From: an uncultured Verrucomicrobiae bacterium
GTDB taxonomy: Bacteria > Chlamydiota > Chlamydiia > Chlamydiales > Rhabdochlamydiaceae
Direction of reading: 5' to 3'
NCBI GenBank assembly: GCA_963718565.1
Contig: OY970364.1
Location: 1,312,001-1,376,000, forward strand
Length of the DNA stretch: 64,000 bases
The notes beneath the pieces are model-generated. The model saw nothing but the letters and a program-made list of their open reading frames with translations, searched no databases and was not told the DNA's origin. Each line of letters begins with the position of its first letter. The stretch's first letter is position 1. Shown here in pieces: positions 48,770-50,651 of the stretch. Made by a program: the position numbers and the translations under genes.

Positions 48770-49192
48770 ATGAACAAGTTTTTAAGCATTCAGGAAGCAG
48801 CAAAATGTTTGGGAGTTTCTCCACAAACACTCCGCCGATGGGAAAGACAAAAGAAAATCGTTCCCTGTCATCGCATACAGGGCGGCCAACGCCGCTATAG
48901 TCTCACTCAGTTACAGCCATTTAATTGCGGAGATAAAACCTCTGATCGTCTAACTGTTGCCTACGCAAGAGTTTCGAGTCATGATCAAAAAGAAGATTTA
49001 CAACGACAAGTCCATATGTTAGAAATTTACTGCTTTGCAAAAGGATGGGTGTTTTCGGTAACCAAAGACCTCGGTTCCGGGATGAACTATAATAAACGTG
49101 GGCTAAAACAACTGCTTGAGCAAAATGGTTCAAGAAGCCATAAGAACAAACAGCTTTTGGCCAACCTTCAAAATGCGGTCGCCAATGTCTAA
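48770..49192 (+). pseudogene. tnpA: IS607 TnpA serine recombinase with an in-frame internal deletion
   Basis: QTLRRWE HTH, YARVSS and DLGSG are present. The DRLxR region is missing (LLEQ|NGSRSHKNK). Confidence 0.8.
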
Positions 49193-50651
49193 AGAGAATC
49201 TGGTTCTTAAGCTGGGAATTGAAGCAGACCCTCAAACAATTTCTGAGCTCGATGGGCAATCGCGGATCTGTAATTGGCTTTATAATCATCTGCTAGAAAA
49301 AAGCCTGGAACTCAAGCGGGAATTTATCCATTCCGGCAACCCGGAGGCATCAAAGACCCTCTATACAGAAAGAGGACTCAGAAATGAACTTCCAAAACTC
49401 AAGGAAGAGCACCCCTTTCTAAAAGTCGTCCACTCTTCTCCATTAAAAAATACCGCTTTGAGACTTAGTGAAGCAATCCGGGTTCATCAAAAATCAAAAA
49501 AAGGAAAACGGAAAGGCAAACAGATGGGTTGGCCCAAATTTCGGGCCTGGAAACGGGACTGGTTTTCTCTTTTTTACGATGAACCAGAAAAAGGTTTCAA
49601 GATTCACGGCAAAGCCTTGTTCCTCTCCCTTGGAATGGGCCAGGACCGCAAGCGCCGCTTCCTCACTCTCGAATTACCCGAAGCACATCTCCTCAAAGAC
49701 AAAACCCCACGCAATTTGCGCATTATCTCCGAACTGGGAACCTACTATGCCATTTTTACCATTCAGAAAGAACTCCCCATCCGAAAACCCATTTCTAAAA
49801 TCCTCGCACTCGATCCCAATCACAAAAATCTCGCCTATGGTGTTGACACAAGTGGAACAGCCATTGAGATTGCATCTCCTCACTGGCTCAAAACTTACGA
49901 TAAACGCCTGGACGAACTAAAAAGTAAAAGAGACCGCTGTGATAAAAAATCTAAAAAATTCCATGTTCTGGATGAAAAAGGCAATCCCACAGGAAAAGAA
50001 TTCCATCTTCCTTCCAGGCAATGGAGAAAATACGATCATGCCCTAAAAAGCGCACTGCGTAAACGCCGAGAACAGACCAAGACGTTTATGTTTACAAGCG
50101 CACATCGCCTTTTCCGAAATTACGACTGCATTGGAATCGGAGACTATACACCAAATGGCGAAGGCATTACTAAACCAATGCGGCGAGCGATGAATAACCG
50201 ATCCTTGATTGGACGTTGGAAAAACACCCTCTCCTGGGTAGCTCGAAAATCGGGAAAAACCTTTATTGAATTCGACGAGAAAGGGACAACCCGGACCTGT
50301 AGCCACTGCCTGCGGATTGAAGAGCGGGGAATCCCTGTCTCATTGAGACAATGGCAATGTCCACAGTGCAAGACCGTTCACATTCGCGACGAGAATGCCG
50401 CAATTAACGGCTTGAGAAAGATCTTGCGAGATCTTTCAGCAAAAAATGAAGGAGGATATCCTTCAATAGTGTCTGGCTCAGACCTCGCTTTTATCCAAAA
50501 GCGATGGGCCTGGTGTGTTTTGCCTAATGGTGTACATGTGACACCGTGGGGGCAAGACAGCAAAGCAATTTGCAGCATCAGGAAATTAAACCGAGGGCAT
50601 GATAGCCCTCGATCAAAAGTTGATAATTTGGTTATATATGATCAGGTTTGA
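49185..50651 (+). CDS. tnpB: TnpB RNA-guided endonuclease with rearranged RuvC
   Basis: ALDPN, IGIGDY, FDEKGTTRTCSHC, CPQC, IRDENAAIN. Confidence 0.9.
   Translation: MSKENLVLKLGIEADPQTISELDGQSRICNWLYNHLLEKSLELKREFIHSGNPEASKTLYTERGLRNELPKLKEEHPFLKVVHSSPLKNTALRLSEAIRVHQKSKKGKRKGKQMGWPKFRAWKRDWFSLFYDEPEKGFKIHGKALFLSLGMGQDRKRRFLTLELPEAHLLKDKTPRNLRIISELGTYYAIFTIQKELPIRKPISKILALDPNHKNLAYGVDTSGTAIEIASPHWLKTYDKRLDELKSKRDRCDKKSKKFHVLDEKGNPTGKEFHLPSRQWRKYDHALKSALRKRREQTKTFMFTSAHRLFRNYDCIGIGDYTPNGEGITKPMRRAMNNRSLIGRWKNTLSWVARKSGKTFIEFDEKGTTRTCSHCLRIEERGIPVSLRQWQCPQCKTVHIRDENAAINGLRKILRDLSAKNEGGYPSIVSGSDLAFIQKRWAWCVLPNGVHVTPWGQDSKAICSIRKLNRGHDSPRSKVDNLVIYDQV

What the first reader, a model, noticed from the sequence alone, without database searches (positions are those of the whole stretch)
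49185..50651. IS607 TnpB with the rearranged pro-Fanzor RuvC signature in an intracellular bacterium
Seen: RuvC-I Asp followed by Pro (ALDPN), the usual RuvC-II Glu replaced by Gly (IGIGDY), an alternative Glu 46 residues later (FDEKGTTRTC), a zinc finger and RDENAA. Known: this rearrangement typifies Fanzors and their closest bacterial TnpB relatives, and Fanzor2 is linked to IS607-type elements. Inferred: a probably active RNA-guided nuclease in a eukaryote-associated lineage, relevant to bacteria-to-eukaryote or virus transfer.
Basis: partly seen in the sequence, partly recalled or inferred. Interest (0 to 1): 0.75.

Follow-up and report, generated by a model that had tools for sequence, protein, structure and literature searches.

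The report
Chlamydial IS607 TnpB with relocated glutamate
This is one of about eight near-identical copies of a small jumping gene in a chlamydial genome, carrying an intact RNA-guided nuclease (TnpB) of an already described subtype with a moved catalytic glutamate, and it shows no special kinship to eukaryotic Fanzor nucleases.

Summary
The ORF at 49185-50651 encodes a 488-aa TnpB with D210 (ALDPN), Gly319 where the RuvC-II Glu normally sits, Glu365 46 residues later and six residues before a C4 zinc finger, and D402 (RDENAA). These residues are invariant in 59 aligned relatives.

The gene lies in a 1955-bp IS607-type element (48715-50669) with GG at both junctions. A roughly 250-nt guide-RNA scaffold ends exactly at the right end, and 48 of its 62 base pairs show compensatory changes.

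The genome holds 7 intact copies and 1 interrupted copy at 99.3-100% identity. All of them carry a transposase gene with an in-frame 198-bp deletion. Only two other copies keep full-length tnpA, and both have lost tnpB.

The Fanzor link is not supported. The RuvC-I motif is DPN, not the DPG that defines pro-Fanzors. In a tree of 66 proteins, the window's protein sits in a broad bacterial "DPN" family (support 100/99). That family is separate from the Fanzor2 clan (100/100).

The relocated glutamate is the published TnpB2 / Ealt / RIIr arrangement. This scan reached the same verdict on similar TnpBs in other genomes. Verdict: a new member of a known kind, of modest interest.

The parts
48715..50669 (+). 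Whole IS607-type element, 1955 bp. This is the version with the internally deleted tnpA.
   Evidence: BLASTN of the locus against the other genomic copies and of the element against the whole genome: 7 collinear 1955-bp copies at 99.3-100% identity, with similarity lost at both ends.
48715..48769 (+). Left end. It starts GGGGC(T/A)TGTAAC and holds the subterminal repeat 48738-48767, which is probably where TnpA binds (inferred).
   Evidence: All 9 copies that have both ends start at the same GG. A 30-nt inverted repeat, 83% complementary, pairs 48738-48767 with 50629-50658, and there are direct repeats D1 and D2 between the two ends.
48770..49192 (+). Truncated tnpA (140 aa): a MerR-type HTH plus the first ~56 residues of the serine-recombinase catalytic domain, including the VSSHDQ serine motif. 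It overlaps the tnpB start by 8 nt.
   Evidence: NCBIfam IS607 transposase scores 112.6 bits (cut-off 110) but matches only profile positions 2-114 of 187. Pfam Resolvase matches profile 2-58 of 145. The full-length 206-aa form elsewhere in the genome matches Resolvase 2-137 of 145.
49124..49125 (+). Junction of the in-frame 198-bp (66-codon) deletion in tnpA.
   Evidence: Copies with full-length tnpA carry 198 extra bases between element positions 410 and 411. The 206-aa and 140-aa ORFs differ by exactly this stretch. A relative's contig in an RNA library diverges from the window exactly at 49125 (table 7).
49185..50651 (+). tnpB, 488 aa, an RNA-guided nuclease with a relocated RuvC-II glutamate (D210 / G319 / E365 / D402, C4 zinc finger). 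Residues 457-488 are predicted to be disordered and overlap the guide-RNA gene.
   Evidence: AlphaFold2 model: mean pLDDT 86.0, pTM 0.79, residues 457-488 below 50. Best fold match is ISDra2 TnpB 8h1j, TM 0.82 on the target.
50419..50669 (+). Guide-RNA (omegaRNA / reRNA) scaffold. Two 5' hairpins lie at 50419-50434 and 50447-50465. The core is closed by the invariant helix 50476-50479 with 50664-50667. The scaffold ends in the fixed GG at 50668-50669.
   Evidence: In 19 relatives, sequence conservation stops exactly after ...GAGCGG. On my 62-pair structure, 89.2% of cells pair (shuffles 73.5%, slid controls 40-47%) and 48 pairs change on both sides, reached by 0 of 500 shuffles. RNAalifold alone gave 49 pairs, 36 of them compensatory. 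The single-sequence fold has z = -6.2. Coordinates were mapped.
50670..50689 (+). Right flank that the RNA's guide segment would copy, and so the predicted target once the element is lost. The ~20-nt length is assumed by analogy with ISXfa1.
   Evidence: Inference from the scaffold/flank boundary and from ISXfa1, where the flanking G's belong to the scaffold and the guide follows (PMC10711439, section 25 and supplementary text 2).
50642..52549 (-). parC (topoisomerase IV subunit A). Its last 8 codons and its stop codon lie inside the element's right end.
   Evidence: ORF list. NCBIfam NF007209 scores 923 bits and matches residues 1-626 of 635. The element ends at 50669.

Best explanation
Window 48715-50669 is one copy of an IS607-family insertion sequence in a chlamydial chromosome. 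It cannot move on its own. Its serine-recombinase gene tnpA has lost 66 codons in frame, covering most of the catalytic domain, so its movement must depend on full-length TnpA made elsewhere in the genome. One such helper has both ends but no tnpB.

The element's cargo appears intact. This cargo is a 488-aa TnpB of the relocated-glutamate subtype (TnpB2 / Ealt / RIIr), whose triad is D210, E365 and D402. It also includes a structured guide RNA of about 250 nt, encoded across the 3' end of tnpB and ending at the right-end GG.

By analogy with characterised TnpBs, the RNA would read on into the right flank. The TnpB-RNA complex would then cut an emptied site next to a GG-containing motif and restore the element by homologous repair.

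Shown here: the anatomy, the copy census, conservation of the catalytic residues, covariation in the RNA, and the protein's place in the tree. Inferred: nuclease activity, the motif beside the target, mobilisation in trans, and the homing role.
For: - **Family and catalytic residues:**
- **Triad alignment:** D210, E365 and D402 align with ApmFz2 D324, E467 and D501, the triad seen coordinating Mg2+ (PMC11832414). E467A and D324A abolish ApmFz2 cleavage, and the rearranged TvTnpB is active (PMC10530073, passages).
- **Fold:** a confident model (pLDDT 86) whose best match is ISDra2 TnpB.
- **Element ends:** GG at both junctions in 9 of 9 copies that have both ends, with unrelated flanks.
- **Copies:** 7 intact 1955-bp copies plus 1 with a 1116-bp insertion near the right end. 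All 8 tnpB frames are open with D/G/E/D kept, and there are 20 variable sites in all.
- **tnpA:** 10 places with the deleted form (profile 2-114) and 2 with the full form (2-187). Pfam Resolvase coverage is 2-58 against 2-137 of 145.
- **Usual architecture:** in relatives, a tnpA with at least 190 of 206 residues aligned lies directly upstream of tnpB in 43 of 59 loci. It is partial in 9 and absent in 7.
- **Guide RNA:**. Three independent deletion derivatives keep the last 204-218 bp, which hold the whole RNA core.
- **Coding overlap:** identical codons at identical residues rise from about 0.40-0.57 along the gene to 0.57-0.64 over residues 421-480.
Against: - No cleavage, RNA or transposition data exist for this element.
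- The only RNA-library evidence is a handful of metatranscriptome contigs from relatives, which may be DNA carry-over.
- Variation among the 8 copies gives no clear sign of purifying selection (6 synonymous and 7 non-synonymous sites in tnpB).
- The base before the left-junction GG varies (G in 2 of 9 copies). A strict GGG motif, as in ISXfa1 and ApmFz2, would therefore leave most copies unprotected.
- The curated NCBIfam IS607_TnpB model scores only 61.9 bits against a cut-off of 350.
Confidence: 0.85

Rival explanations
1. One reading: this is a pro-Fanzor, a member of the narrow bacterial lineage closest to eukaryotic and giant-virus Fanzor2, and so a candidate source or relic of transfer from bacteria to eukaryotes or viruses.
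For: It shares the alternative Glu six residues before the zinc finger, a Pro after the RuvC-I Asp, and the association with IS607 TnpA. Jiang et al. suggest Fanzor2 arose from bacteria taken up by amoebae (PMC10530073, discussion passage), and chlamydiae live inside eukaryotic cells. Three family members (P0136, P0137, P0142; 36-38% identical to the window's protein) do carry DPG.
Against: - The motif is DPN, which is at least 90% conserved in the family. It fits neither published screening expression, DPG or D-notP-G.
- In the careful tree of 66 rows the DPN family (35 rows) is one clan at 100/99, and the Fanzor2 clan (22 rows, including 4 named giant-virus proteins) is another at 100/100 on a stem of 1.97.
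- Yoon et al. state that pro-Fanzors are nested inside the Fanzor2 clade (supplementary text 1).
- A search with a Megavirus Fanzor2 listed no DPN-family protein among its best 120 hits.
- The family profile scores ISDra2 TnpB (123-127 bits) above ApmFz2 (95-99 bits).
- The family occurs in many free-living phyla.
- In Yoon's Table S5 the only 'chlamyd' hit is Chlamydomonas.
Confidence: 0.06
2. The copies are kept alike by gene conversion, or they are an old, now immobile set. On this reading TnpB and its RNA are relics heading for decay rather than a working homing system.
For: The dominant form lacks a working transposase. The genome holds many broken fragments of the element. Variation among copies shows 6 synonymous and 7 non-synonymous sites. 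The genome is rich in insertion sequences and broken genes (IS256, IS630, split clpB, fragmented parE).
Against: Eight of eight long copies keep a 488-codon frame with all catalytic residues, and there is only one variable site in the RNA region. One helper with full tnpA and both ends is present. All copies share the same deletion yet sit in unrelated flanks, so the deleted form itself has spread.
Confidence: 0.15
3. The 140-aa TnpA remnant is not junk. It keeps the MerR-type DNA-binding domain and may act as an end-binding regulator or inhibitor of transposition, or as a regulator of tnpB, in the way truncated transposases do in other IS families.
For: The deletion is in frame. It preserves the native C-terminal 21 residues and the 8-nt overlap with the tnpB start. 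The HTH domain scores as well as in the full-length protein (MerR 50.2 against 53.7 bits). Ten places in the genome carry this form.
Against: An in-frame deletion is expected by chance one time in three. The ten copies descend from one event, so their number is not independent support. No relative with the same deletion turned up among 59 loci; other genomes show different tnpA remnants. The comparison with inhibitors in other IS families is from my own recall.
Confidence: 0.15
4. The TnpB has been recruited for a host or regulatory role and is no longer a transposon nuclease.
For: Altae-Tran et al. describe many recruited TnpBs (PMC10691335, abstract and passages).
Against: The recruited forms described there have inactivated catalytic sites. 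Here the triad and zinc finger are intact, the gene lies within IS ends in multiple copies at unrelated sites, and its RNA ends at the transposon boundary.
Confidence: 0.03

Closest known systems
RuvC-II-rearranged TnpBs: 'TnpB2' (e.g. TvTnpB of Thermoplasma volcanium; Jiang et al. 2023, PMC10530073), 'Ealt' TnpBs (Yoon et al. 2023, PMC10711439), and clade RIIr-5 of Altae-Tran et al. 2023 (PMC10691335)
   Same: The canonical RuvC-II Glu is replaced by Gly. A conserved alternative Glu lies about 45 residues downstream, six residues before the zinc finger. Size is compact, and a guide RNA is encoded at the 3' end.
   Different: TvTnpB travels with an IS605 (Y1) transposase, whereas this one travels with an IS607 serine recombinase. 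The RuvC-I motif here is DPN rather than D-hydrophobic-G or DPG. I could not map this family onto a named RIIr clade, because the clade memberships were not available to me.
ISXfa1 (IS607 family, Xylella fastidiosa) TnpB and its reRNA (Yoon et al. 2023)
   Same: IS607 architecture, a GG crossover dinucleotide, and an RNA scaffold that includes the fixed flanking G's and runs into the flank.
   Different: The ISXfa1 reRNA is about 150 nt, whereas the structured region here is about 250 nt. ISXfa1 needs a GGG motif and its copies sit mostly in GGG, whereas here only 2 of 9 copies have G before the GG. I did not determine ISXfa1's own RuvC-II state.
Acanthamoeba polyphaga mimivirus Fanzor2 (ApmFz2, PDB 9b0l)
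   Same: The triad positions align (D324/E467/D501 with D210/E365/D402), there is Gly at the old Glu position, and the element context is IS607.
   Different: It belongs to a different clan in the tree (100/100 against 100/99). ApmFz2 has an N-terminal extension carrying a nuclear localisation signal. Fold similarity is lower (TM 0.57 against 0.82 for ISDra2 TnpB). Pairwise score is only 29 bits.
Pro-Fanzors (mostly cyanobacterial IS607 TnpBs; Yoon et al. 2023)
   Same: Alternative Glu, Pro after the catalytic Asp, and an IS607 TnpA partner.
   Different: They have DPG, not DPN. They are reported as nested within Fanzor2, and this family is not. No named cyanobacterial pro-Fanzor sequence was in my tree, so the comparison rests on the Fanzor2 clan and on the paper's statement.
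ISDra2 TnpB (PDB 8h1j, 8exa)
   Same: Best structural match of the model (TM 0.82 and 0.78 on the target) and the best natural solved-structure match to the family profile, behind only an AI-designed nuclease.
   Different: ISDra2 has the canonical Glu where this protein has G319, and Pro where this protein has E365. It is an IS200/IS605 element with a Y1 transposase.

Membership tests
TnpB, RNA-guided endonuclease (NCBIfam NF040570) | Score over the curated cut-off across the whole protein | tested here: met
   136.1 bits against 100, covering residues 11-412 on profile 4-389 of 389.
TnpB, RNA-guided endonuclease (NCBIfam NF040570) | RuvC Asp-Glu-Asp triad and C4 zinc finger conserved | tested here: met
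   D210, E365, D402, C372, C375 and C395 are invariant in 59 sequences, and C392 is conserved in at least 90%. The Glu is at the alternative position.
TnpB, RNA-guided endonuclease (NCBIfam NF040570) | Structured guide RNA overlapping the 3' end of the gene, with a sharp scaffold/guide boundary at the right end | tested here: met
   conservation ends at ...GAGCGG, and 48 of 62 pairs change on both sides (reached by 0 of 500 shuffles).
TnpB, RNA-guided endonuclease (NCBIfam NF040570) | Guide- and TAM-dependent DNA cleavage | not testable with these tools
   Needs expression and a TAM-library or plasmid-interference assay.
IS607 family insertion sequence | Serine-recombinase TnpA with an N-terminal MerR-type HTH, directly upstream of tnpB | tested here: met
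   NF033518 scores 112.6 bits (cut-off 110) in this copy, although it is truncated (profile 2-114 of 187). Two other copies score 217 and 214 bits over 2-187. Full-length tnpA lies upstream in 43 of 59 relatives' loci.
IS607 family insertion sequence | A matching GG dinucleotide at both junctions | tested here: met
   9 of 9 copies with both ends start with GG and end with GG. The GG rule for IS607 is taken from PMC10711439 (section 25 and supplementary text 2).
IS607 family insertion sequence | NCBIfam IS607_TnpB model (NF038280) over its cut-off | tested here: not met
   61.9 bits against 350. This TnpB is not of the subtype that model was built on. IS607 membership rests on TnpA and the ends, not on the TnpB subtype.
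RuvC-II-rearranged TnpB (TnpB2 / Ealt / RIIr) | Canonical RuvC-II Glu replaced by a non-acidic residue | tested here: met
   G319 aligns with the Glu of ISDra2's motif and is invariant in the family.
RuvC-II-rearranged TnpB (TnpB2 / Ealt / RIIr) | Conserved alternative Glu six residues before the first CxxC | tested here: met
   E365 then six residues then C372. Invariant in the family. Aligns with E467 of ApmFz2.
RuvC-II-rearranged TnpB (TnpB2 / Ealt / RIIr) | Alternative Glu lies next to the two Asp residues in three dimensions | tested here: inconclusive
Support is indirect: alignment to the solved ApmFz2 triad and E365's place just after the strand 359-363.
Pro-Fanzor sensu Yoon et al. 2023 | DPG motif at RuvC-I | tested here: not met
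   DPN, with N212 conserved in at least 90% of the family. Among 258 aligned relatives with letters at all four sites, 215 are DPN-G-E-D and 22 are DPG-G-E-D. Many of these are near-copies.
Pro-Fanzor sensu Yoon et al. 2023 | Forms one clade with Fanzor2 | tested here: not met
   Separate clans at 100/99 and 100/100 in the careful tree of 66 rows. Named cyanobacterial pro-Fanzors were not in the tree.
Pro-Fanzor sensu Yoon et al. 2023 | Alternative Glu plus an IS607 TnpA partner | tested here: met
Fanzor2 | Encoded in a eukaryote or a eukaryotic virus, with an N-terminal extension carrying a nuclear localisation signal | tested here: not met
   The genome is bacterial. The protein starts directly with the first strand of the TnpB fold at residue 3.

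The most novel reading that the evidence does not exclude
In this chlamydial genome the IS607 element has split into two interdependent forms. One is a single helper that keeps full-length TnpA and both ends but has deleted tnpB. The other is a swarm of 8 or more carriers that keep TnpB and the guide RNA but have a catalytically dead, in-frame-deleted TnpA.

The nuclease-bearing, transposase-dead form is the one that multiplied. That would be a natural experiment showing that TnpB plus its RNA, not the transposase, decides which copies persist. The 140-aa HTH remnant may additionally act as an end-binding regulator.

A similar skew was seen in one other genome, where 1 of 7 full-length copies had tnpA (loci L030-L037).
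Probability: 0.25. Interest if true: 0.45.

Novelty: new member of a known kind. Interest (0 to 1): 0.3.

Why it matters
This adds a well-resolved example of the relocated-glutamate TnpB subtype, with exact ends, a copy census and a guide-RNA structure backed by covariation. It comes from a phylum reported as poor in TnpB (PMC10691335, passage).

It also shows that motif screens built on DPG or D-x-G miss a large IS607-linked family that carries DPN.

It does not bear on the origin of Fanzors. The pairing of one TnpA-only helper with many carriers that have dead TnpA but intact TnpB is a small, testable case for the idea that TnpB promotes retention of its element.

Tried and rejected
- **Rfam:** a scan of 48500-50900 at E up to 1 found no family, so the guide RNA has no curated model.
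- **Alignment too diverse:** The search for related loci rejected the 32-sequence alignment as too diverse. I repeated it with an 8-sequence alignment. That scan used the pattern [DEN]E[KTR][GN][TS]T[RK]TC, so it cannot show the family's full range.
- **RNA evidence:** only two metatranscriptome runs held a small share of the element's words, 0.12 and 0.06. When laid on the element they gave 7 and 2 contigs. Most were 90-95% alike, so they come from relatives, and one 171-nt contig was identical to 50346-50516. They sit in RNA libraries but are not shown to be transcribed. I use them only for the loose end at 49125.
- **Triad geometry:** the model's coordinates were not placed in the script box, so the triad could not be measured.
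- **Viral contigs found with the family profile** (L095-L102) were not close to ApmFz2. Fanzor2 sequences came instead from a degenerate-motif scan, confirmed at E = 2e-106 against 9b0l.
- **First tree:** the 108-row tree included by my mistake 5 unrelated ORFs from the loci, which appeared as very long branches. I removed them and cut the set to 66 rows so that the careful search could finish. The two clans were the same in all three runs.
- **Taxonomy of unnamed relatives:** the cluster look-up gave no organism names. Plasmid searches gave nothing for P0322 and one Cupriavidus megaplasmid for P0001. The protein-atlas look-alikes of P0322 are mostly giant-virus clusters, and those of P0001 are bacterial. 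These are leads only.
- **Promoter and terminator scan:** 3 and 5 sites were found, against 2.9 and 3.2 expected by chance.
- **Overprinted N-terminal arm:** The frame is open for only 23 codons upstream here and 36 in the full-tnpA copy, and homologues start at the ATG. Rejected.
- **Literature:** no paper in the held library combines TnpB, Chlamydiae and endosymbiont. The Rhabdochlamydiaceae paper has no occurrence of IS607 (listing), IS200 or OrfB.
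Full report
**1. The observation**

Window 49185-50651 (+) translates to a 488-aa protein without internal stops.
- ALDPN at residue 208 (D210)
- IGIGDY at 316 (G319)
- FDEKGTTRTC at 363 (E365)
- RDENAA at 401 (D402)

E365 lies 46 residues after G319 and six before C372 of a C4 zinc finger (C372, C375, C392, C395). These are not chance matches. D210, G319, E365, C372, C375, C395, R401 and D402 are invariant in an alignment of 59 relatives sharing 25-92% identity with the window's protein, and N212 is conserved in at least 90%.

NCBIfam's guided_TnpB model scores 136.1 bits (cut-off 100). 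The curated IS607_TnpB model scores only 61.9 (cut-off 350). Pfam PF07282 scores 55.6 (cut-off 26.3).

**2. The element**

Comparing the locus with the other copies in the window's own 2.28-Mb genome sets the ends at 48715 and 50669, a length of 1955 bp. All nine copies that have both ends begin GGGGC(T/A)TGTAAC and end GTTTTGAAGAGCGG. Their flanks are unrelated. GG at both junctions is the IS607 crossover dinucleotide as described for ISXfa1 and IS607 (PMC10711439, section 25 and supplementary text 2). A 30-nt subterminal inverted repeat (83% complementary) and two short direct repeats link the two ends.

The genome census:
- 7 collinear 1955-bp copies.
- 1 copy with a 1116-bp insertion at element position ~1920. 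All eight of these are 99.3-100% identical.
- All eight tnpB frames are open with D/G/E/D kept.
- Several deletion derivatives and solo ends.

The right end of the window's copy sits in the 3' end of parC. The last 8 codons and the stop of parC now come from the element, but the ParC profile still matches residues 1-626 of 635.

**3. The transposase is broken in the copies that spread**

The upstream ORF (48770-49192, 140 aa) is an IS607 TnpA, but it matches only profile positions 2-114 of 187. For Pfam Resolvase it matches only 2-58 of 145.

Two other places in the genome encode a 206-aa TnpA that matches 2-187, and 2-137 of the Resolvase profile. The difference is an in-frame 198-bp deletion whose junction is at window 49124/49125. 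A relative's contig in an RNA library departs from the window at exactly that point.

The deleted form occurs at 10 places and the full form at 2. Both full-length tnpA copies have lost tnpB:
- One (G000 1529877-1530768) keeps the left end, tnpA, the first 6 codons of tnpB and the last 206 bp of the element. It is a complete mini-IS607 without a nuclease.
- The other is cut off after TnpB residue 180 and has no right end.

In relatives the usual state is a full-length tnpA directly upstream of tnpB: 43 of 59 loci have at least 190 of 206 residues aligned, 9 have a partial tnpA and 7 have none.

I infer that the window's element is non-autonomous and is moved, if at all, by TnpA supplied in trans. 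That the missing 66 residues are essential is inferred from the extent of the catalytic-domain profile lost, not tested.

**4. The guide RNA**

I aligned the DNA from the RuvC-III codon onward in 19 relatives whose TnpB identity goes down to about 41%. The stretch is strongly conserved and stops abruptly after ...GAGCGG, the element's last bases.

RNAalifold predicts 49 pairs, 36 with compensatory changes. With two further 5' hairpins added by eye, the 62-pair structure gives:
- 89.2% of cells paired, against 73.5% in shuffles and 40-47% when partners are slid by 1-3 columns.
- 48 pairs changed on both sides, reached by 0 of 500 shuffles.

The structured region is window 50419-50669. Its core is closed by an invariant 4-bp helix, 50476-50479 with 50664-50667, just before the terminal GG. 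The single sequence folds with z = -6.2.

Three independent deletion derivatives keep the last 204-218 bp, which is the whole core. Over TnpB residues 421-480, which overlap this RNA gene, identical residues are more often encoded by identical codons (0.57-0.64) than over most of the gene (0.40-0.57 elsewhere). The AlphaFold2 model is disordered from residue 457 on. No Rfam family matches.

**5. The active site**

The AlphaFold2 model built on the 59-sequence alignment is confident (mean pLDDT 86.0, pTM 0.79). Its best fold matches are bacterial TnpBs: ISDra2 8h1j at TM 0.82 on the target and ISFba1 8iaz at 0.77. ApmFz2 9b0l scores 0.57.

HMMER alignments give these correspondences:
- D210 on D324, G319 on the Gly of the ICIGKL motif, E365 on E467 and D402 on D501 of ApmFz2.
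- G319 on the catalytic Glu of ISDra2, and E365 on a Pro of ISDra2.

The cryo-EM paper names D324/E467/D501 as the Mg2+-binding triad (PMC11832414, passages). Jiang et al. report that D324A and E467A abolish cleavage, and that a rearranged bacterial-type TnpB (TvTnpB) is an active, TAM-specific nuclease without collateral activity (PMC10530073, passages).

The geometry of E365 is therefore inferred, not shown.

**6. Relationship to Fanzors**

Yoon et al. define the Fanzor / pro-Fanzor fingerprint as DPG at RuvC-I plus the alternative Glu. They screened with expressions requiring DPG or D-notP-G. They describe pro-Fanzors as mostly cyanobacterial and nested within the Fanzor2 clade (PMC10711439, sections 10, 23 and 30, supplementary text 1).

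This protein and its family have DPN. Among 258 aligned relatives with letters at all four sites, 215 are DPN-G-E-D and 22 are DPG-G-E-D, though many are near-copies. The family is in their data: a close homologue appears in their Table S1 as 'Bacteria, unknown'. It is not flagged, however, and the only 'chlamyd' entry in their Table S5 is Chlamydomonas.

To test kinship I collected giant-virus Fanzor2 proteins. One was confirmed against 9b0l at E = 2e-106, and named relatives come from Megavirus, Cotonvirus and mamavirus. I added canonical TnpBs from phages as an outgroup; all four carry the canonical Glu.

The careful IQ-TREE run used 66 rows, 439 columns and the LG+C20+F+G4 model. It gives the DPN family (35 rows) as one clan at 100/99 and the Fanzor2 clan (22 rows) as another at 100/100 on a stem of 1.97. 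Rooted on the canonical proteins, the DPN family joins other bacterial alternative-Glu groups only weakly (88/75 and below). Two quick runs gave the same clans. The first of them contained 5 unrelated ORFs by my mistake.

Named cyanobacterial pro-Fanzors were not in my tree. My statement about them rests on the paper's report that they nest inside Fanzor2.

**7. Host and range**

The window encodes an NTP/NDP exchange transporter (719 bits). It also has a partial match to the 'chlamydial GcvH-like upstream region protein' (191 bits, below its cut-off).

The closest TnpB relatives (53-84% identity) are in records titled Chlamydiales, Parachlamydiales, Waddliaceae and Rhabdochlamydia. Records titled Oligoflexia, Verrucomicrobiae and Acidobacteriota hold relatives at 72-80%. 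More distant members (41-52%) occur in Chloroflexota, Acidobacteriota, Cupriavidus, Ralstonia and others. I did not check those record titles.

The family is therefore not special to intracellular bacteria. Altae-Tran et al. list Chlamydiae among TnpB-poor phyla.

**8. Verdict**

The sequence observation is right, and the gene very probably encodes a working RNA-guided nuclease with its guide RNA. The arrangement is the published TnpB2 / Ealt / RIIr type, and there is no support for a special link to Fanzors.

Earlier follow-ups in this scan reached the same conclusion for similar TnpBs in Asgard archaea. No look-alike of this protein had been noted before.

What may merit a small follow-up is the split of the element into one transposase-only helper and many carriers with a dead transposase and an intact nuclease.

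Noticed in passing
window 33309-34214 and 34388-35485 (+): clpB appears split into two ORFs, matching ClpB profile positions ~150-287 and ~466-766 of 853. It is probably a broken gene.
   Followed up: no
window 52861-54141 (-): The gene upstream of parC, a topoisomerase IV / gyrase B-type subunit, is in several short overlapping ORFs. The 222-aa piece matches GyrB profile 312-495 of 641. parE looks fragmented while parC is whole apart from its IS-derived tail.
   Followed up: partly
window 46105-47265 (+) and 10069-11124 (+): Two further insertion-sequence transposases are present: IS256 family (344 bits) and IS630 family (191 bits). The IS256 copy lies next to a short ORF (45548-46093, -) that by eye looks like an F-box-like stretch followed by WD40 repeats. 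I did not test that ORF.
   Followed up: no
G000:C1:191125-192242 (locus L002): One copy of the element carries a 1116-bp insertion at element position ~1920, with 6 bases repeated at its two sides. It cuts through the right-end repeat and the 3' part of the guide-RNA gene. I did not identify what the insertion is.
   Followed up: no
loci L030-L037 (one genome, record titled 'uncultured bacterium'): Of the 7 full-length copies of the related element fetched from this genome (L030-L032, L034-L037), only L030 has a tnpA match upstream. This is the same skew towards nuclease-only copies seen in the window's genome.
   Followed up: partly
proteins P0273-P0392: Among the 120 best relatives of a Megavirus Fanzor2, the RuvC-I motif aligned as DLG in 68 and as DPG-G-E-D in only 15. 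Pro after the catalytic Asp is therefore not universal in this giant-virus set. This rests on an hmmalign to a profile of a different family and was not checked by eye.
   Followed up: no
window 47660-47734 (-): tRNA-Arg (anticodon TCG) lies between the IS256 copy and recO.
   Followed up: no
window 54688-63985 (-): Two very large ORFs (1800 and 1293 aa) carry autotransporter beta-strand repeats. They are probably surface proteins.
   Followed up: no
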